Shown piece by piece: positions 1 through 37,204 of a DNA stretch of 64,000 bases. Each line of letters opens with the position of its first letter. The first letter of the stretch is position 1. A program made the translations under genes and the position numbers. Source of the DNA: Lytechinus pictus (lineage: Eukaryota); contig NC_087250.1 in assembly GCF_037042905.1 (NCBI RefSeq), positions 10,170,001 through 10,234,000 on the forward strand, given 5' to 3'. Under the pieces are notes generated by a model, which saw only the letters and a list, made by a program, of their open reading frames with translations, ran no database searches and had not been told where the DNA came from.

Positions 1-602
1 GAGGGTGTTTAAATAAAATCAAATACATTTCTTGATCATAATGTTGTGAATTAACGAGTCCTCTATTCAGAACAGTGGACCCATGAATAAAACAGCGTGC
101 GTAACCAAGGCAACAGGCGTCAATTTGGCACCTGTGACACAAGCGTGCATCAGTATTGGACATTTTTTAATATACGCAGGTTCAACCAATGGTTTTCAAA
201 ACTACTTTTGTGAATTCGGGCCAATGTTACCAACTTTAAATTTCCAAACAGCTAGTCAAAACATCTTAAAAACTTCAACTGGTCTGTTTTTCCGTAAGTT
301 TTAAGTGACAGACAATGTCTATCACTACATTACGACTTTTATTTTTCTGAATAAGTGACGGTCAACTGGTCATAACATATCTTAATTATCATAATTTAAC
401 ATTCACCTAGTTTCCCCCATATTTTTTCACCCATATATCGAGTTGGGTTGAGCAGACCATACAACAAAACTTAAAGGAAAAGAACAAACAAAACAGATTG
501 AAAAAATGACTACTACATATGCAAAACAAGAGGCACGGAACAAGCAAAACAAGACAAGAAAGATACAGAATGGGACCACAATGAAATGGGTTACATGCTC
601 AC

Positions 603-726
603 GTTTTTCATGCGTTTATCAGTACACTGAGCTGCGATTTCTCCGGCAAGCCTGACGACTTCCAGCGACGCCAGAGCGATCTTCTTAGCGATCTCGATTA
701 ATTCTTTCTTTGACGTTTTCTCACCG
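603..726 (-). CDS. VCL: Vinculin tail exon 18B (Vt helix-3 region), (S)GEKTSKKELIEIAKKIALASLEVVRLAGEIAAQCTDKRMKN, phase 2-0; mutually exclusive with 18A
   Basis: tag/gtgagc boundaries, 124 nt, ACTAAC branch-like motif at 780-785. Confidence 0.9.
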
Positions 727-2338
727 CTAGATAAGGGATGGAAACAAAGCTTATAAATCAGATCTTTGCAAAGTTTGGGGTTAGTCCTTGGATTTTCTTT
801 GTTGTTGTGTGGACACAGTGCATAGTGCAATCAATGAAATGAACTGCAAAAGTTACAATGGCCTGCCTTGCTGTAAAGGAATGGGAATTTTGGATTCAGC
901 TTTATTCAAAAATTTAGATAGCAATGAAAGCCCATGCCCCCCCCCCCCCAAAAAAAAAAAAGAAGAAAGAATATAAAACCTATTAATTCATATACATGTA
1001 TATGTCATATTTACCATGACTACCATCTTTATAATATTTCATTCCATTTTCTTATTTGCTTTTCTTGAATTAACTGCCAAACAGAAGTTGACAAATCAAA
1101 ACGTATGCAGTGCATCATCATTGATTATACTATGATAGAATCCAGGAGACGGGGAGCCCTGTTTCACAAAAACTGTCAACAAAAAATCATTCATAATTTG
1201 AGGTATAAGGTAGATATATATACATGTATGTATTAACTACCAATCTTGGCATATGATTGGTTGAGAGCGAATTTGTCAGAAATAAATTTTTGCTGTAGCA
1301 GGTTTCATGAAACAGGGTCCCAATAACAAACAATGATTTGAATAAATTCTCACAGCAAACTGGCTCCCTCTGTTGACAAGATTAGATCCAACTCTCACTC
1401 CTAAACATGACTTGTGCATCATTTAAGTTTATATGGGCCACTATTCATGTTACTAATCATGCTAAACATCCACATGAATAATAAAGTAATTTCAGGAATT
1501 TTTTTTTTTTAAGAAATAATAATTGGGACTATTCTCAAGTTGTCATACAATTTGTGTCCCCTTGTAATAAGAGGAATGTTTTCCCTGAGAGATTCTTCAT
1601 TCAACTTGACTAAGTCATGGAAAAGTCAATCGAAAAATCAGACTTTTCAAAGTGTTGTTGCATTATCTGTTGTATTATCAGTAGTTACTTTTGGGCATAC
1701 ATAAGATGATTATGCATACAGTAAAAACATAAAATACTAGACAGGCCCGTAGCCAGGGTTTTCCATTAGGGGGTTCAAACCCTTCTCTTTCCTTCACTTC
1801 TTATTTTCCTCCCTTATTTTTTCTTGCTTTTGAATATTTGAGGAGGTTGCTTTGAGCTCCCGAACTCCCCCGGCTATGGGCTTGCTAGATATTGTGGTAA
1901 AGCAATTTTAGCGATAATGTACATGTATTACAATTATGCCTTCTTTTCATGCAAACAGTATGCATATAATTTTTGTGAATTTTTCTTTTTCTCAAGGCAA
2001 TAAGGGACTACGCCAGGCATCATTAGCTACAGAGACATACATGTATACGAGGATTAAGCTATACAGCTCATTCATGCTTTCTTTATTTGGTATATGTAGT
2101 AAATATGCTTGGAATGTGAAACATAGAAATTCATTCGGACACACTACACATATATATCATAATAAAACATAATAGTACACACATATCTATGTCACAAAAA
2201 TCACGGATATAAGGGATTTGTAAAAAAAATTGTCAACAAAGAGAGCAAGTTAGTTACACTACATGCTATCCATGTTTTGGAACACCTTGTACTAAAACAA
2301 GGACGTGTCCAATTTTTTTCTAGACAGCCTATACCTAC

Positions 2339-2462
2339 CACTCGCATACGGATATCGGTGCACTGGTTGGCTATCTCGCGGGTTAGGCGGGTCACCAAGG
2401 CGGCGACCTTGACGATCTCCTTAGCGGTGTCTATCAGGTCCTTCTTATTACCACCCTCTCCA
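2339..2462 (-). CDS. VCL: Vinculin tail exon 18A (Vt helix-3 region), (S)GEGGNKKDLIDTAKEIVKVAALVTRLTREIANQCTDIRMRV, phase 2-0; mutually exclusive with 18B
   Basis: cag/gtaggt boundaries, 124 nt; resembles human [41 protein letters not shown]. Confidence 0.9.
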
Positions 2463-2539
2463 CTGATAAAGGTCATGGGGGTCAAAGGTTAAAGGTTACA
2501 GGGTCAACGGTTACAGGCAAATGGGATGCTGCCAGCATA

Positions 2540-3004
2540 TATGACCTACCACCCCAAAACCACCAATAAGTTGCCAGGTAAGGTTCTCTGTCAATAGCCA
2601 AAATAGTAATTTAGTCTCCAATATCCAAAAATTAACAAAATAGCTTATCCGAAAGAGCAATTCTTCTCCTTTATACTATTTGAAGTCGTGAAGTTGAATA
2701 AAAGATACAAGAGTTCCTTGGACACTACTTTTTCAGACTGCTTGGAAGTTTCAATGAGATTACACAGTATGCACATCTCATGCTTGAGTGAACCCCAAAC
2801 TCCAAACCTTGTTTTCTCCTTGTTTTTTAAAGCTCTTGCTGAATTTCCTCTGCATTCAATCAAGTACTTTTAATGGTTATTGCTAGTCAGTTTTAAAATA
2901 TTATATATCATTTTAAAGCTTAGGAAATGAATTTTCAAGCTCAATAAAAATATCAATATTCATTTTGGTCGACTTATTGTTGGTTTTGGGGTGGCAGGTT
3001 ACAT
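2540..3004. mobile_element. MITE with ~30-bp TIRs; second copy at 62633-63061, fragment at ~11600-11700
   Basis: ATGACCTACCACCCCAAAACC ... GGTTTTGGGGTGGCAGGTTACAT; near-identical body in the 62.6-kb copy. Confidence 0.8.
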
Positions 3005-3279
3005 ATAAATCATAAAGTAACTGAATGGAGCCAAGGGGAAAATATTCTTTGATTATTTGAAATAATTTGTTTTTCTTTCGACTTATACAGATGCTTTAAT
3101 AACAATATCTCAGAAACGTTAAACCTTGTACCAATATCAAAAAGACAAAGTGTAAATAGATATTATTTAAAAAAATAGTGATTGGTATATTTAGATAATA
3201 AGGAGAATGAACAAAATAAGATAACTTAGGTGTGGAGAAATAATAAATGAAGTTTTATACTTATTATATTAGCAAGGAG

Positions 3280-3610
3280 TGGAAGAAGAAGAATATGAAG
3301 AAGAAAAAGAAGGAGAAGAAGAAGAAGGAGAAGGAGGAGGAGGAGGAAAAGAAGAAAAAGAAGAAGAAAAAGAAGAAGAAGAAGAGGAGAAAAAAGAAAG
3401 AAAAAAAAAACAATAGGAAGGAAGAGAATTAAAACAAAATATAATGTAATGATGATGAAAATAATACAGGAATACACTAAAGATCAGACAAGAAGACAAA
3501 GGAAGAAGGAGAGAGAAGACAAATAAGGGAGAGAAGAGGAAGATGATGGAAAGGAAAAAAGACAAAAAGAAAAAGAAAGAAAAAGAAAACAACAAAGAAA
3601 AGGGAATCAT
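3280..3610 (+). repeat. GAA/AAG-rich polypurine tract (similar tracts at 27875-28000 and 29695-29800)
   Basis: Low-complexity purine run. Confidence 0.85.
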
Positions 3611-3713
3611 GATATGAAAATCATAATCAAAATGATAATAATAAAAACAATCATAATAAGAAAAACCTAAATAATAGTAGATTGTTATAAGATCATAAAA
3701 TAATCTTACATAC

Positions 3714-3829
3714 CTGACATGTTTGCTCATGGCAGCCATGAGTTGTGCCATTCGTTTAGCTGCGGCAATGAGATCGTTGTCCTTGCTTGACCACTGTGCT
3801 GTTTCAACATGGAGGTCATAAGCAGCTTG
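3714..3829 (-). CDS. VCL: Vinculin exon 17 (Vt helices 1-2), [38 protein letters not shown], phase 0-2
   Basis: cag/gtatgt boundaries, 116 nt; [16 protein letters not shown] motif. Confidence 0.96.
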
Positions 3830-4435
3830 CTGTAAAAAAAAATATCATAGTAAATTATATTCAAAATAATCATAGAACCTTAACAATGGTGTGTGTCTGC
3901 AGATATATTGGGTGGTATTTTTTTTTTTCTTGGCCCCAACAAAAATTGGGCAGTGTTTCGTGTAGAAATCTCTCGCGACCATGCCTACCGCATACCATTT
4001 AGCTGAGCATAAACCTAGGTTCGACCCTAGTATAAAACAGAATTTTAATCGCACTTCTATGGAGTGCTAATATTTCTTCCATATTTGTGGCAATTGTAAT
4101 GTACTAATTAATTCATTTAATACTCATGATATTTTTGTATATTCCTACTCTTTGACATTTCACAACTCAATTATTTTTGAAAACTTCTTGCACAGAATGA
4201 GAATAACTTTTGCTTGGTGGCATTCCATAAAATAGTGGTCTAAGTTTACCATGGCTAACAGAATAACACCCATTGAGTACACAGGTAATATCACCGATGT
4301 TAAGAAAAATGTAAATTTTTGGAACCTACTACCTTTTCTTATTTATGAAACACCCTCCAGGTGTGGTGGCCCCTTTAAGGCAGCCAACATACCACAGTAG
4401 GACTGGGCCCTTACAAACAGCGGTATAAAACACAC

Positions 4436-4676
4436 CAGGAACCCATCTTACAAAGAATTACGATTGCTCCGATCAAACTTAACTGTATGGAAATCCAACA
4501 AAGTCACATTTTTTGTACAAGAAATTGGCAAAATGTTCTTTTAGAGAGGCATGTGGATTTTTCAAGAAAGCAATGAATATACAGCATATCTAGAAAATTT
4601 CAGATGTTAATGATGCTGGCTTTCCATAGTTGTCTTTGATCGGATCAATCGCAACTCCTTCTAAGACGGTGCCCAG
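4436..4676. mobile_element. PIF/Harbinger-like MITE; copies at 11972-12254 and 37417-37686
   Basis: GGGCCCCGTCTTACAAAGAG-type TIRs and a shared internal sequence in three copies. Confidence 0.72.
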
Positions 4677-4708
4677 GTGTGGTAGTCCCGTTAATGTAGC
4701 TAACTTAC

Positions 4709-4821
4709 CATAATGGGTTGGTGAGATCCTTGCTCTGGGACCGGTAGGGACTGATCCTCGGGTGGTGGTGGGCGGGGTGGGGGTACATCACCAGGGAGGG
4801 GTGGCCTGGGTGGGGCAGCCT
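4709..4821 (-). CDS. VCL: Vinculin exon 16 (Pro-rich linker), (E)[37 protein letters not shown], phase 1-0
   Basis: cag/gtaagt boundaries, 113 nt; resembles human [21 protein letters not shown]...NQPMM. Confidence 0.93.
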
Positions 4822-5009
4822 CTGCAGAGTGAAAAAGACATTAAGAATGAAGTTGATGCAGTGAACAGGTGTTGTTTCACAAAGTTTGCTGGTGGTATAT
4901 GTAGAGTGCGTCCCAGAGGAAAAATTAACTGCAATTGGCACTAATTTCTCATGCATAGCCCAAATCATACGGATCACCATTCAATTCATTTTCTTTTCTT
5001 TTATACACA

Positions 5010-6370
5010 ATATAATAATAATAATAATAATTAACATTTATATAGCGCTTAATACAACAGTTTCTAAGCGCATTGGAAAGAGAAAAAAGAGGTAGCAAAA
5101 TACAGTGAAAGAGAACAGGATATATGGAATTAAGAGGACTGCTTAATGAGGTAAGATTTGAGGAGTGTTTTGAAAGATTCGACAGTGGATGCATTACGGA
5201 TGGAGATGGGGAGATTGTTCCAGAGTTTAGGGGCAAGAGCAGAAAAAGCACGATCGCCATAACGGGTAAAAGTGCGGGGTCCTAGAGATAGTCGAAGGTG
5301 AGCAGTAGAAGAAGATCGGAGACGTTGAGTTGCAGAGGATGAGTGACAGAGAGAGATAAGATTTTGAAGGTAGGATGGGGCGAGACCATGGATGATTTTA
5401 TAGACAAGGAGAAGGAGCTTGAAAATAATTCTATTATGAACCTGAAGCCAATGGAGGGAGTAGAGAATAGGGGTGATATGTTCAAATTTCTTAGTGAGGG
5501 TTACCAATCTAGCTGCAGTATTTTGAATTCTTTGAAGGGGGGCTATACTAGATTGAGGTAAACCAGCAAGTAAAGCATTACAATAATCTAAATGGGATGA
5601 TACAAAGGCATGTACTATACGTTCAGTAGATGATTTATCAAGATACTTTCTTAACTTCCCTATCTTACAAATACCCCATGATGCACAACGACAAACATTT
5701 CTGATATGCTGGTTAAGGGTCAAGTTGTTATCAATAATAACTCCAAGATCCCTTACAGTATCTGAACCACTGATATTTCCAGCGAGAAAATCTAAACAAG
5801 GTAAATGACCTGAACTCCTAAACCTAGAGAAAACATGCAGCATCTCAGTTTTTAGTTCATTGAGCTGAACCTTGTTGTCGAATGACCAACGCTTGATATC
5901 AGCAATACAGGCAGACAGTCTTTGAACAGCAACTCCTCGATCCGCTGGCTTCATGGTGAGATATATCTGAGTATCATCAGCATAGGTAGTATACTGGATA
6001 CCTGTATGAGAGTTGATAATCCTTCCTAAAGGACCAGTATATAGGATATACAAGAGAGGTCCGATAACGGAGCCTTGCGGGACACCATAGGGCAGAGAAA
6101 AGGGTTTAGAAAATGAACCATTCACGACAACCTTATGGCTTCGTCCGGCAAGGTAGGATTCCAACCAAAGAAGAACAGTTCCACTGAAGCCGTAATCATG
6201 TTCCAAACGTTGAAGAAGAACACCATGGTCCAGCGTGTCAAACGCAGCTGAGTAATCCAAAAGGATAAGAACAGCCTCTTGTCCTTTATCCACAGCAAGC
6301 AGAAGATCATTCTGAACCTTTAACAGGGCCGTTTCAGTAGAATGAAAGTGGCGATAAGCTGACTGATATG
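5010..6370 (-). mobile_element. 5'-truncated non-LTR retrotransposon, L2/CR1-type clade, in the intron between exons 15 and 16
   Basis: Uninterrupted RT ORF; 3' UTR with GCGCTTAG...TAAGCGCTATATAAAT motif ending in a (TAT)n tail. Confidence 0.9.
5130..6368 (-). CDS. Reverse transcriptase (RT domain plus C-terminus) of the truncated LINE
   Basis: QSAYRHFHSTETAL, LLDYSAAFDT, GVPQGSVIGPLLY, YADD, RDLGV and LHWL motifs; no stop in ~410 codons. The upstream Met in the ORF track probably comes from flanking DNA. Confidence 0.9.
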   Translation of the reverse strand, partial: YQSAYRHFHSTETALLKVQNDLLLAVDKGQEAVLILLDYSAAFDTLDHGVLLQRLEHDYGFSGTVLLWLESYLAGRSHKVVVNGSFSKPFSLPYGVPQGSVIGPLLYILYTGPLGRIINSHTGIQYTTYADDTQIYLTMKPADRGVAVQRLSACIADIKRWSFDNKVQLNELKTEMLHVFSRFRSSGHLPCLDFLAGNISGSDTVRDLGVIIDNNLTLNQHIRNVCRCASWGICKIGKLRKYLDKSSTERIVHAFVSSHLDYCNALLAGLPQSSIAPLQRIQNTAARLVTLTKKFEHITPILYSLHWLQVHNRIIFKLLLLVYKIIHGLAPSYLQNLISLCHSSSATQRLRSSSTAHLRLSLGPRTFTRYGDRAFSALAPKLWNNLPISIRNASTVESFKTLLKSYLIKQSS

Positions 6371-6651
6371 ATATAATTATGCTCTTTCTCATCCCATGGA
6401 TTGTTTGTTCATAATGGTAAAACTTTTTTTTTAATCTGTTCGTTTTCCACTTCTATTACATAAGTTTTCACAAAAGTAATATTGTAGCAAGAATTGGGAA
6501 ACAAAAATTGTATGAATAAACCTACATGGGGTGTGAGGCAAACTATGTACTAAAATTTCAAATCAATCATACAAATTGTATTTTTGTTTCTTAAAAAGGC
6601 TGGTTAGCAAAATGTAATTCGGTTTCTTTCAATAGAGTTATGAACACAAAC

Positions 6652-35079: not shown

Positions 35080-36838
35080 TGTTCGGGTGAGAATGAGAAG
35101 ATGATAGTGAGAGTAAGTGAAAGGGTGAGAGTAATAGTGGGTTCATGGTGAAGGGGACGTGAGAGGGGAAAGGATGTGTGGATAAGGAGAAAGAGAAGGT
35201 TAGGGTGGGGGACGGGATGAGGGAAAGGGTGAGGGGGCGGGGTTCAAGAAATGGTGAGAGCAAGTACGCGCGTGAGGGTGATGTTGAAAGGGGGTGATGA
35301 GGCTTGAGGGCAGGGTGGGTGTAATATGGTGAGGACGATGGTAGGGGCGAGGATGGGAGAGAGGGGTAGGGGCGAGGATGGGAGGGTGGATATGATAGTA
35401 ATAGTAGGGGTGACGGTGGAAGATAGAATGAGAGTGGGTGTGATAGTGACAGTAAGGGTCGGGGAGAGGGTGGCGTGATGGAGGAAGACGGTTGCGTGGG
35501 GGAGAGGGTGAGTGTGATAGTGACATTGAGAGTAGTGAGGATGTGGGTGAGGGTGGGTGTGAAAGTAATGGTGAGGATAGGGGAGGCTGGGTGAGGAAGA
35601 TAGTGGGTGTGATAGTGAGAGTAAGGGTGGGGGAGAGGGTGGGTGTGATAGTGACATTGAGGGGAGTGAGGGTGTGGGTGAGAGAGAGGGGTGGTATGAT
35701 AGTGACAATGAGAGGAGTGAGGGTGTGGGTGAGAGAGAGGGTGGGTGTGAAAGTGACATTGAGCGTGGGAGAGGGTGGGTGAGAGAGAGTGGGTGTGATA
35801 ATGACATTTATTAAAATAGGAGTGTGGGTGAGGCCGAGGGAGATGGTGAGGGTGATAGTGACAATGAGAGGAGAGAGGGTGGGAGTGAGGGAGAGAAAGG
35901 GTGTGATAGTGACATTGAGAGGAGTGAGGGTGTGGGTGAGAGAGAAGGTGGGTGTGAAAGTAATGGTGAGGATAGGGGAGGCTGGGTGAGGAAGATAGTG
36001 GGTGTGATAGTGACATTGAGAGTAGGAGAGAGGGTGGGTGAGGGAGAGTGGGTGTGATAGTGACATTTATTAAAATAGGAGTGTGGGTGAGGCTGAGGGA
36101 GATGGTGAGTGTGATAGTGACATTGAGAGTAGGAGTTGGGTGGGAGAGTGAGTGAGTGTGATGGTGAGGGTAGGAAAGAGGGTGTGGTGAGGGAGAGGGT
36201 GGGGTGATAGTGACACTCAGAGTAGGAGAGTGGGTGGGATTGAGGGAAAAGGTGAGTGTGATAGTGAGGGTGGCATGAGGGACAAAGTGGTTTGATAGTG
36301 GCATTGAGAGGAGAGAGGGTGGGAGGAATAGGGCAAGTGTGATAGTAACAGTGATATGAGGGTGGGTGGGGGGAGAGTAAGTGTGATAGTGACATTGAGA
36401 GTAGGAGTATGGTGGGGCTGAGAGAGTGAGTGTGATAGTGAGAGGGTGGGAGTGAGGGACAGGGAGGGTGTGATAGTGACATTGAGAGTAGGAGTGTGGG
36501 GCTTTTGGAGAGGGTTAGTGTGAAAGAAAGGGTGAGGGTGGGATAGAGGCTGGGGTGAGTGAGAGAGTGGGTGTGATAGTGACATTGAGGGTAGAAGAGA
36601 GGGTGAGGGAGTGAGTTGGTGTGAAAGTAACAGTGAGGGTGTGATAGAGGCTCTGGTGAGGGAGAGAGTGGGTGTGATAGTGATATTGAGGGTAGAAGAG
36701 TGGGTGAGGGAGTGGGTTGGCGTGAAAGTAACAGTGAGGGTGGGATAGAGGCTGGGGTGAGGGAGAGAGTGGGTGTGAAAGAGGGTAGGATAGAGGCTGG
36801 GGTGACGGAGAGAGAGAGTGAGTGTAATAGTGACATTG
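35080..36838 (+). repeat. 1.75-kb G-rich degenerate minisatellite (core GGGTGTGATAGTGACATTGAG)
   Basis: Many imperfect copies; the plus strand is almost free of C; generates spurious His/Pro/Ser/Thr ORFs. Confidence 0.9.
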
Positions 36839-37204
36839 AATTCTAAGAGGCTGTATGGTTCATTTTTCTGAAATAAGATTTTTTCATGAATTAATTAGGC
36901 TAATTCATGCATAAAACAATGAATTTGTCTACTTAACTAAACGAGGTGTTTTAATATTCATTCATCCCTTCTCTCAGTAAAAACAGTATGTTACAAAATG
37001 AGCCAGCAATTTTATGCCTTCCTTTTAAGGAGATTAGCCAATTGACAACACTTCAATAAGACCTCAGGGGACAGTTTAAAAAAATTGTAATACAGTTAAA
37101 AGCTACTGAAATGCTTCAATCTTACTGGCTGATGGTAAATTTGTTACAGAAATTGTGCATTTGTTACTATAACAAGTCTTGATAAAACGGGACCCTGAAC
37201 TTAC

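What the first reader, a model, noticed from the sequence alone, without database searches (positions are those of the whole stretch)
603..2462. Mutually exclusive duplicated exons swap the helix-3 region of the vinculin tail
Seen: 2339-2462 and 603-726 are each exactly 124 nt, phase 2-0, with canonical splice sites. They encode colinear paralogous peptides (GEGGNKKDLIDTAKEIVKVAALVTRLTREIANQCTDIRMRV vs GEKTSKKELIEIAKKIALASLEVVRLAGEIAAQCTDKRMKN). As 124 is not a multiple of 3, including both or neither shifts the frame, so productive mRNAs carry exactly one. Both frames are intact despite heavy divergence, which argues for selection on both. Known: Vt binds F-actin, PIP2 and paxillin and clamps the head; the vertebrate splice variant metavinculin instead replaces the helix-1 region through an inserted exon. 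Inference: this is an independent solution that tunes tail ligand binding or autoinhibition by swapping helix 3. Both copies differ from the usual [13 protein letters not shown] pattern, so a third, more canonical copy may lie just left of the window.
Basis: partly seen in the sequence, partly recalled or inferred. Interest (0 to 1): 0.85.

Follow-up and report, generated by a model that had tools for sequence, protein, structure and literature searches.

The report
Sea urchin vinculin alternative helix-3 exons
A sea urchin vinculin gene carries two old, interchangeable copies of the small exon that builds helix 3 of its actin- and membrane-binding tail, so one gene makes two tail versions; gene catalogues already list both forms, but I found no paper describing them.

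Summary
On the minus strand, 2462-2339 (18A) and 726-603 (18B) are each 124 nt with AG/GT borders. They encode collinear peptides, 21 of 40 identical, and both align to human vinculin 940-978, which covers tail helix 3.

The window matches Lytechinus pictus vinculin. Of 24 NCBI sea-urchin isoforms from 5 species in 3 genera, 11 carry A and 13 carry B. Five equal-length isoform pairs differ only in these 41 residues. One model (L. variegatus X5) ends as expected if A and B are both included, with a stop at codon 2 of 18B.

RNA reads from the window's species join exon 17 to 18B (22 reads and one contig) and run on into the next exon. No read touched 18A in the four runs laid. Yet 18A is 41/41 identical from Diadema to Strongylocentrotus, while 18B is 35/41.

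Crinoids, hemichordates and one sea cucumber (55 proteins) each show a single version. There is no sign of a third copy.

A keeps the basic ladder but lacks Lys975, the anchor to head domain D4, and the acidic 959/960 pair. B keeps those but lacks the basic residue at 966. An effect on autoinhibition or lipid binding is inferred, not tested.

It is an ordinary kind of splicing switch in an interesting place. The scan had not noted it before.

The parts
4709..4823 (-). Vinculin exon called 16 here; encodes the proline-rich end of the head-tail linker (EAAPPRPPLPGD...QPIM).
   Evidence: tblastn of P0006 residues 991-1028, 100% identity. RNA joint 3829->4709 with 9, 5 and 7 reads and one contig.
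3714..3829 (-). Exon 17, 116 nt; encodes tail helices 1-2 ([10 protein letters not shown]...AMSKHV). It ends with AG, the first two bases of the split Ser codon. Its donor is AG|gtatgt.
   Evidence: Sequence. tblastn 100% identity. RNA joints on both sides.
3226..3620 (-). Long CU-rich (CUU/UUC) low-complexity tract in the intron between exon 17 and 18A, as read on the transcribed strand.
   Evidence: Direct-repeat family D1 at 3251-3433 and 3526-3603. The frames translate as poly-Leu/Phe/Ser. A role in splice choice is an idea only and was not tested.
2537..3006 (.). Repeat element bounded by 35-nt inverted ends, 75 nt upstream of 18A in the intron.
   Evidence: Inverted pair I1, arms 2537-2571 and 2972-3006, 89% complementary. 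In the RNA runs it shows high depth on both strands, with loose ends at 2542 and 3006, so it is a dispersed repeat read from elsewhere.
2339..2462 (-). Exon 18A, 124 nt; encodes GEGGNKKDLIDTAKEIVKVAALVTRLTREIANQCTDIRMRV, which corresponds to human vinculin 939-979 (helix 3 and the turn that docks on head domain D4).
   Evidence: Identical in 11 NCBI isoforms from 5 sea-urchin species. Depth was zero in all four runs laid.
727..2338 (-). Intron between 18A and 18B, 1612 nt.
   Evidence: Coordinates. At this length, steric hindrance between neighbouring splice sites (a recalled mechanism) cannot explain why only one exon is used.
603..726 (-). Exon 18B, 124 nt; encodes GEKTSKKELIEIAKKIALASLEVVRLAGEIAAQCTDKRMKN. 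This is the form used in the RNA sampled here.
   Evidence: Joint 726->3714 with 2, 11 and 9 reads plus a 2750-nt contig. Loose ends at 603 (7 and 10 reads) read NLLQVCERIP. 100% identical to L. pictus isoform X6.
1..602 (-). Start of the intron after 18B. The remaining tail exons (NLLQVCERIP... to the C-terminus) lie outside the window.
   Evidence: No vinculin match here. Reads leave the window at 603.

Best explanation
This is the 3' part of a sea-urchin vinculin gene (Lytechinus pictus or a very close relative), transcribed from the minus strand. An ancient tandem duplication left two alternative versions of the 124-nt exon. That exon encodes tail residues 939-979 in human numbering: the loop before helix 3, all of helix 3, and the turn that docks on head domain D4. 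A productive mRNA carries exactly one copy.

Exclusivity is enforced at least by the reading frame. A followed by B stops at the second codon of B, and skipping both shifts the frame. Whether splicing itself also forbids the double form is unknown.

18B is the default in the RNA sampled. 18A is a rarer or conditional form under very strong purifying selection.

Inferred, not shown: the swap re-tunes two surfaces that helix 3 carries in vertebrate vinculin.
- The A tail keeps all the basic-ladder positions, but replaces Lys975 (the main tail anchor on D4) with Ile, and Ser958/Glu959/Glu960 with Ala/Ala/Leu.
- The B tail keeps Lys975 and Glu960, but loses the basic residue at 966 and changes the Gly-Gly loop at 941-942.

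I therefore expect the A isoform to have a weaker D4 lock, and so easier opening, together with a less acidic, more hydrophobic helix-3 face. I expect B to be the tightly autoinhibited housekeeping form.
For: Anatomy:
- Equal length, equal phase and canonical AG/GT borders.
- A and B are homologous (E = 2e-12).
- Both align to 940-978 of solved human vinculin.

Identity of the gene:
- Exons across 44.7-0.6 kb match L. pictus vinculin-like isoforms at about 100%.
- PF01044 scores 783 and 776 bits.

One exon or the other:
- Of 24 isoforms, 11 carry A and 13 carry B; none has both in frame and none has neither.
- 5 of 6 equal-length pairs tested differ only inside the exon.
- Joining 17+A+B in silico gives ...IRMRVR then a stop. 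That is exactly the C-terminus of L. variegatus X5.

RNA:
- 22 reads in three raw RNA runs and one 2750-nt contig join exon 17 to 18B.
- 17 reads continue from 18B into NLLQVCERIP.

Selection, Diadema against Lytechinus or Strongylocentrotus:
- A 41/41, B 35/41, exon 17 38/38 or 37/38, the rest of the tail 80/85.
- The whole protein is 754/951 between D. antillarum and S. purpuratus.

Residue roles, from passages read:
- Helix 3 is 943-971, and the basic ladder includes K944, R945, K952, K956, R963, K966, K970 and R978 (PMC12180986).
- D974, K975, R976 and R978 form the Vt-D4 interface. K975 is the only strong tail anchor there, and mutating all four weakens head-tail affinity 100-fold (PMC5807537).
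- K944/R945 bind PIP2 and raver1 (PMC4259812).

Conservation of these positions:
- The D4 partner motif NSEDPKF (N773, E775) is kept in the window's gene.
- Among 105 non-urchin invertebrate vinculins, position 975 is K or R in all 105, position 960 is E or D in all 105, and position 958 is S in all 105. Position 966 is K or R in 99 (the printed numbers there are one too high).
Against: - No read lay on 18A in any of the four runs (depth 0 in bin 2297-2460), and 0 of 22 exon-17 donor joints went to 18A. Only about 6% of each raw run was read, and the tissues are unknown to me.
- The use of A therefore rests on automatic NCBI models, whose evidence I could not inspect, and on conservation.
- I had no DNA from other species. 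Protein-level selection (dN/dS) on 18A cannot be told from nucleotide-level constraint.
- Ile at 975 is not unique to A. 8 of 127 unnamed representative proteins read CTDIK at this place, and one reads CTDVR. A non-basic 975 is therefore tolerated in some animals.
- Position 956 of the ladder is Glu in 70 of 105 invertebrates, so the vertebrate ladder does not carry over residue for residue.
- No structure, binding or lipid test was done.
Confidence: 0.8

Rival explanations
1. 18A is mainly a regulatory 'poison' exon. Its inclusion ahead of 18B puts a stop codon two codons into 18B, giving a decayed or truncated message that lowers vinculin output. Its extreme conservation would then reflect RNA-level constraint and not a second tail protein.
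For: 17+A+B stops at once, and an NCBI isoform with exactly that end exists (L. variegatus X5, P0131). 18A is more conserved than the rest of the protein (41/41 against 754/951 overall). No 17-18A joint was seen.
Against: Ten other isoform models in five species carry A without B, in frame. After synonymous sites have saturated against B (14/41 third positions shared), A still keeps an open frame. It also keeps the helix positions shared by A, B and all outgroups: L947, I948, K952, V961, C972 and D974 in all 105, and R963 (97 of 105) and L964 (102 of 105) in most. That pattern points to selection on the protein.
Confidence: 0.08
2. 18A is a dead or decaying duplicate that automatic annotation pipelines splice in by homology; only 18B is ever used.
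For: Zero depth on 18A in four runs, and all 22 exon-17 joints go to 18B. All proteins that carry A are automatic models.
Against: A dead exon would not stay 41/41 identical between Diadema and camarodont urchins while the used exon 18B changed at 6 of 41 positions and the whole protein at about 21%. Both splice sites and the frame are intact. The partial exon copies elsewhere in this gene show what decay looks like: truncated, 62-84% identical to the parent exon, and one with a stop.
Confidence: 0.04
3. 18B belongs to a separate, partial downstream copy of the gene and is not an alternative exon of this transcript.
For: None beyond its position near the window's edge.
Against: 22 reads and a 2750-nt contig join 18B to exons 17 and 16 of this gene, and 17 reads continue from 18B into the next tail exon.
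Confidence: 0.01

Closest known systems
NCBI automatic isoform models of sea-urchin vinculin (L. pictus X1/X2 and X6/X7, L. variegatus X1/X2, D. antillarum X1/X2, S. purpuratus X1 against X2-X6)
   Same: They hold exactly this exon pair. The A peptide is identical in all of them, and the B peptide is 100% (L. pictus) or 98% identical to the window's.
   Different: They are unnamed automatic models labelled only 'isoform X'. In four literature searches I found no paper that points out or studies the helix-3 swap. The library holds open-access papers and bioRxiv only.
Metavinculin, the muscle splice form of vertebrate vinculin
   Same: Both are alternative splicing events that change the tail bundle of vinculin and its head-tail dynamics and lipid binding (passages of PMC12180986 and PMC5807537).
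   Different: Metavinculin adds a 68-residue insert after residue 915 and replaces the strap and helix 1. Here nothing is inserted: a same-length exon is swapped, and it changes helix 3 and the D4-docking turn. The event is confined, as far as I could see, to sea urchins.
Vinculin-T12, the laboratory mutant D974A/K975A/R976A/R978A
   Same: Exon 18A naturally lacks one of the four T12 residues (K975 becomes Ile). K975 is the one scored as the strong tail anchor on D4.
   Different: A keeps D974, R976 and R978, so any weakening should be milder than in T12. No affinity was measured here. A also changes positions 955-960 and 965, which T12 does not touch.
Tandem-duplicated mutually exclusive exon pairs in cytoskeletal genes (for example tropomyosin and alpha-actinin; recalled, not checked here)
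   Same: Same architecture: neighbouring homologous exons of equal length and phase, with one used per message.
   Different: The 1612-nt intron between A and B rules out the short-intron steric mechanism known for some pairs (recalled). Here the frame (124 nt, not a multiple of 3) is the only shown safeguard, and a double-inclusion model exists.

Membership tests
Vinculin (Pfam PF01044) and its tail domain | Whole protein scores above the family's curated cut-off | tested here: met
   P0006 (A form) scores 783.4 bits and P0125 (B form) 776.3 bits against a cut-off of 38.1. The window's exons match these proteins at about 100%.
Vinculin (Pfam PF01044) and its tail domain | The exon peptides align to helix 3 of solved vinculin tails | tested here: met
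   The A and B peptides each hit about 20 vinculin or metavinculin chains at E = 6e-8 to 2e-6. Residues 2-40 (A) and 4-40 (B) align to 940-978 and 942-978 of 1tr2_A. Helix 3 is 943-971 (PMC12180986 passage).
Vinculin (Pfam PF01044) and its tail domain | Five-helix-bundle fold with either exon | not tested
   No structure was predicted. The fold is inferred from the sequence match and from the helix positions shared by A, B and the outgroups.
Mutually exclusive, tandem-duplicated exons | Adjacent homologous exons of the same length and phase with working splice signals | tested here: met
   Both are 124 nt, each with AG before and GT after; 21/40 identical residues.
Mutually exclusive, tandem-duplicated exons | Messages that carry 18B without 18A | tested here: met
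   Joint 726->3714 in 2, 11 and 9 reads and one contig, and onward into the next exon.
Mutually exclusive, tandem-duplicated exons | Messages that carry 18A without 18B | tested here: inconclusive
   No read on 18A in four runs. Ten in-frame NCBI isoform models in five species carry A alone, but I could not see the evidence behind them.
Mutually exclusive, tandem-duplicated exons | Both in or both out is unproductive | tested here: met
   124 is not a multiple of 3. 17+A+B reads ...MRVR then a stop, and P0131 ends that way.
Mutually exclusive, tandem-duplicated exons | A known splicing mechanism that forbids double inclusion (short intron, incompatible splice-site types, competing RNA pairing) | tested here: inconclusive
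   The intron between A and B is 1612 nt, so a short-intron block does not apply. All three donors are gt[ag][at]g type by eye. The inverted-repeat scan gave only low-complexity or transposon pairs, and no convincing docking or selector pair. No other species' introns were available for comparison.
Metavinculin-type isoform | A 68-residue insert after residue 915 that replaces helix 1 | tested here: not met
   The A and B isoform pairs have equal length and differ only at 18-20 positions inside the 41-residue exon.

The most novel reading that the evidence does not exclude
Sea urchins have evolved, by exon duplication, a natural 'primed' vinculin. The ultra-conserved A tail, lacking the Lys975 anchor on D4 and the acidic 959/960 pair, would open at lower force or ligand load and sit differently on acidic membranes. 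It would be used in particular tissues, for instance muscle or other load-bearing cells. That would be a functional parallel to vertebrate metavinculin, reached through helix 3 instead of helix 1.
Probability: 0.25. Interest if true: 0.6.

Novelty: new member of a known kind. Interest (0 to 1): 0.42.

Why it matters
Vinculin is a central force-sensing linker of cell adhesions. Its tail helix 3 carries the basic ladder for acidic lipids, and its end carries the residues that lock the tail onto head domain D4. Here evolution has kept two versions of exactly that segment for a long time. The split is at least as old as Diadema versus camarodont urchins, which I recall as a couple of hundred million years; I did not check that date.

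One version is frozen at 41/41 residues. That gives a ready-made pair of natural variants for testing what helix 3 and Lys975 contribute to autoinhibition, lipid binding and adhesion dynamics, in an embryo where splice-blocking is routine.

It is not a new kind of mechanism. Both forms are already in gene catalogues.

Tried and rejected
- Whole genome for the window: none is held. The DNA left of position 1 and the remaining tail exons could not be read.
- Run search: no listed holder is on record as RNA. I laid three raw RNA runs carrying the same species label and one contig run instead.
- Third copy: none in the window, none in 24 isoforms, and reads leave 18B directly for the next exon.
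- A-type exon outside sea urchins:
  - The word-based search with A found only 6 clusters, all sea urchins.
  - The full scan of 1.84 billion representatives gave 128 hits. After the urchin cluster (69.8 bits) the best scored 47.3 bits at 65% identity. The 33 top segments I printed are all of the ordinary GEGG...ASEEVTRLAK type.
  - Isoforms are merged within clusters in that library, so absence is weak evidence.
  - No starfish or brittle star protein appeared by name in any list, so those classes remain unexamined.
A degenerate DNA pattern scan of metagenome contigs found nothing.
- RNA pairing that could choose between A and B: the inverted-repeat scan gave nothing convincing.
- Earlier notes of this scan: nothing on this sequence, this genome or vinculin.
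- Literature: four searches (vinculin with 'mutually exclusive exons'; with 'sea urchin' and 'alternative splicing'; with 'exon duplication' and 'mutually exclusive'; metavinculin with invertebrate and splice) returned 80, 14, 0 and 1 papers. Going by the listed titles and abstracts, none concerns this event.
- Structure prediction and complex prediction were not run. The tools return no coordinates, so they could not distinguish the A tail from the B tail.

Full report
**What is there**

Read on the minus strand, positions 2462-2339 and 726-603 are two 124-nt segments. Each has a pyrimidine-rich stretch and AG in front and GT behind (gtaggt and gtgagc). Each contributes one base to a split codon and then 41 codons.

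The upstream exon, 3829-3714, ends ...GTCAG|gtatgt. The split codon is therefore AGT or AGC, Ser in both cases.

- A and B share 21 of 40 residues (E = 2e-12).
- They share only 66 of 124 bases, and 14 of 41 third codon positions. The copies are old.
- A relaxed search of the whole window found no third copy.

**What gene it is**

Each peptide alone finds solved vinculin and metavinculin tails at E about 1e-7. They align without gaps to residues 940-978 (A) or 942-978 (B) of human vinculin 1tr2_A. All human numbering in this report is taken from those alignments.

Word-based searches returned NCBI models named vinculin or vinculin-like from Lytechinus pictus, L. variegatus, Strongylocentrotus purpuratus, Diadema antillarum and D. 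setosum.
- The A peptide is 100% identical in all of them.
- The B peptide is 100% identical in L. pictus and 98% in L. variegatus and S. purpuratus.

tblastn of L. pictus isoforms places about 25 exons between 44.7 kb and 0.6 kb of the window, at or near 100% identity. The window is therefore L. pictus or something very close. Both full isoforms pass Pfam PF01044 by a wide margin.

**One exon or the other**

I collected 24 sea-urchin isoforms, including members hidden inside 90% clusters. Eleven carry A and 13 carry B. None has both in frame and none has neither.

Six equal-length pairs were compared.
- Five differ at 18-20 positions, all inside the 41-residue exon: D. antillarum X1/X2, L. 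pictus X1/X2 and X6/X7, L. variegatus X1/X2, and the 995-residue L. variegatus pair.
- The sixth pair has a different make-up elsewhere.

Joining 17+A+B in silico gives ...IRMRVR followed by a stop (CGG TGA). L. variegatus isoform X5 (P0131) ends with exactly those residues. So a double-inclusion message has been modelled, and it is truncated before helices 4 and 5.

But exclusivity is probably not absolute at the level of splicing.

The run search listed no holder on record as RNA. I laid three raw RNA-seq runs carrying the species label of the best DNA holder, plus one contig run, on window 1-4900.
- Joint 726->3714 (exon 17 to 18B) is seen in 2, 11 and 9 reads and in a 2750-nt contig. That contig also joins exon 17 to exon 16.
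- At 603, 7 and 10 reads carry on into letters that translate as NLLQVCERIP. Those are the residues that follow the exon in every isoform.
- The bin covering 18A (2297-2460) has depth 0 in all four runs.
- No 17-18A or 18A-18B joint was listed.

Only about 6% of each raw run was read, and I do not know the tissues. So 18B is shown to be used and is the default in these samples. The use of 18A was not observed here.

The high depth at 2461-3116 comes from a repeat with 35-nt inverted ends at 2537-3006. It does not come from the gene.

**Selection**

Comparisons between Diadema and Lytechinus or Strongylocentrotus:

| Segment | Identical residues |
|---|---|
| 18A | 41/41 |
| 18B | 35/41 |
| Exon 17 | 38/38 or 37/38 |
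| Rest of the tail | 80/85 |
| Whole protein (D. antillarum against S. purpuratus) | 754/951 |

An unused exon would not stay unchanged while the used one drifted. The partial exon copies elsewhere in this gene show what decay looks like.

I could obtain no DNA from other species. I therefore cannot separate selection on the protein from constraint on the RNA. That leaves a poison-exon reading of 18A alive at low probability.

**How far the pair reaches**

A search with the whole A-type tail listed 120 vinculins. Aligned, only the sea urchins show two versions of this segment.

After opening the clusters, the following all carry one version per species:
- 38 Ptychodera isoforms;
- 6 Glandiceps isoforms;
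- 2 Saccoglossus proteins;
- 5 Anneissia isoforms;
- 3 Antedon isoforms;
- 1 Holothuria protein.

A scan of 1.84 billion representative proteins with the A peptide found nothing between the urchin cluster (69.8 bits) and ordinary vinculins (47.3 bits or less). Many of those hits are short reading frames from genomic contigs. They begin ...R-GEGG and leave the protein after the 41st residue with V. This suggests that the exon's borders are widely shared among animals.

Starfish and brittle stars did not appear by name in any list, so the duplication can only be placed at or before the Diadema-camarodont split.

An unnamed 97-residue fragment (P0015) carries a B-type exon that keeps Lys at 966.

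**What differs**

I compared both copies with 105 non-urchin invertebrate vinculins (subtract one from the printed numbers).

A changes these conserved positions:
- Ala955 to Val (Ala in 104 of 105);
- Ser958 to Ala (Ser in 105);
- Glu959 to Ala (Glu in 94);
- Glu960 to Leu (Glu or Asp in 105);
- Ala965 to Thr (Ala in 105);
- Lys975 to Ile (Lys or Arg in 105).

B changes these:
- Gly941-Gly942 to Lys-Thr (Gly in 105 at each);
- Thr962 to Val (Thr in 101);
- Lys966 to Gly (Lys or Arg in 99).

Both keep Lys944, Lys945, Lys952, Arg963, Cys972-Thr973-Asp974 and Arg976. Neither copy is 'the canonical one'. Identity to the Ptychodera version is 27/41 for A and 29/41 for B.

**What those residues do in vertebrate vinculin**

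This is from passages I read, not whole papers.
- Helix 3 is 943-971. The basic ladder that inserts into acidic membranes includes K944, R945, K952, K956, R963, K966, K970 and R978 (PMC12180986).
- K944/R945 bind PIP2, and R945 binds raver1 (PMC4259812).
- D974, K975, R976 and R978 form the small electrostatic Vt-D4 interface, and K975 is its only strong tail anchor.
- K944 and R945 are anchors on D1.
- The T12 mutant of all four D4-interface residues weakens head-tail binding 100-fold and enlarges adhesions (PMC5807537).

The D4 partner motif NSEDPKF is conserved in the window's gene.

My inference is as follows.
- A keeps the ladder but weakens the D4 lock and makes one face of helix 3 less acidic and more hydrophobic.
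- B keeps the lock but trims the ladder at 966.

Two cautions apply.
- Ile at 975 also occurs in 8 of 127 unnamed representatives, as CTDIK.
- Position 956 is Glu in most invertebrates.

**Comparison and verdict**

This is a textbook-style tandem-duplicated alternative exon pair, already present in automatic gene models of at least four species. It is not metavinculin: nothing is inserted and helix 1 is untouched.

Four literature searches found no paper on it. The scan's earlier notes hold nothing on it.

- The main reading (mutually exclusive helix-3 exons under selection) is supported, with the gap that A's use was not seen in reads.
- The functional tuning is untested.
- The third-copy guess has no support.

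Interest is moderate: a known kind of event, placed on a functionally loaded helix of a much-studied protein, with one copy frozen across the whole sampled range of urchins.

Noticed in passing
window 38383-38273, 38182-38090, 31779-31705, 31589-31518, 30754-30680, 29681-29583 (minus strand): Partial, degraded copies of neighbouring vinculin exons lie in the introns. Two are copies of the last ~32 codons of the exon at 38743-38504, each with its first intron codons. Three are copies of the first ~25 codons of the exon at 30554-30327, one of them with a stop. One is a copy of the exon at 29574-29458. They are 62-84% identical to the parent exon. They look like young local duplications and pseudo-exons, unlike the complete and ancient 18A/18B pair.
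   Followed up: partly
window 23715-23593, 19882-19754, 18213-17947, 14629-14465, 10707-10537 (minus strand): These are exons for a long Pro/Ser-rich head-tail linker. They are present in the 1193-residue L. pictus isoforms and absent from the short (about 951-residue) urchin isoforms. NCBI isoform lengths run from 951 to 1332 in urchins, and Ptychodera has at least 39 isoforms, so the linker is heavily alternatively spliced in ambulacrarians.
   Followed up: partly
P0131 (L. variegatus isoform X5), not in the window: This annotated isoform ends ...QCTDIRMRVR, which matches inclusion of both 18A and 18B and a stop at the second codon of 18B. Such a protein would lack tail helices 4 and 5.
   Followed up: yes
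window 2537-3006: A repeat element of about 470 bp has 35-nt inverted ends that are 89% complementary. It sits 75 nt upstream of exon 18A. It is covered at high depth on both strands in the RNA runs and contigs, with loose ends at its borders, so it is a dispersed, transcribed repeat.
   Followed up: partly
window 3226-3620 (minus strand): A long CUU/UUC-rich tract lies in the intron between exon 17 and 18A. Tracts of this kind are bound by polypyrimidine-tract-binding proteins in other alternative exon systems (recalled). Whether it represses 18A is untested.
   Followed up: no
window 5133-6452 (minus strand): An open frame of 440 codons inside a vinculin intron matches reverse transcriptase (PF00078, 76.5 bits), so it is a retroelement.
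   Followed up: yes
window 35614-36839: A G-rich minisatellite (units of about 51-101 nt) in an intron explains the strong GC skew at 34-38 kb.
   Followed up: yes
P0162, P0163, P0181, P0195, P0198, P0214, P0224, P0245 (unnamed representative proteins): A group of vinculin-like sequences from unnamed sources reads CTDIKMR at the D4-docking turn, with Ile at 975 and Lys at 976. A non-basic 975 has therefore arisen elsewhere too. Their organisms are unknown to me.
   Followed up: no
window 3764-3821 and 4634-4799: In the RNA reads, several linked differences from the window occur in part of the reads over exons 17 and 16 (for example 6 of 10 reads at 3764-3776 in one run). They are probably allelic variation.
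   Followed up: no
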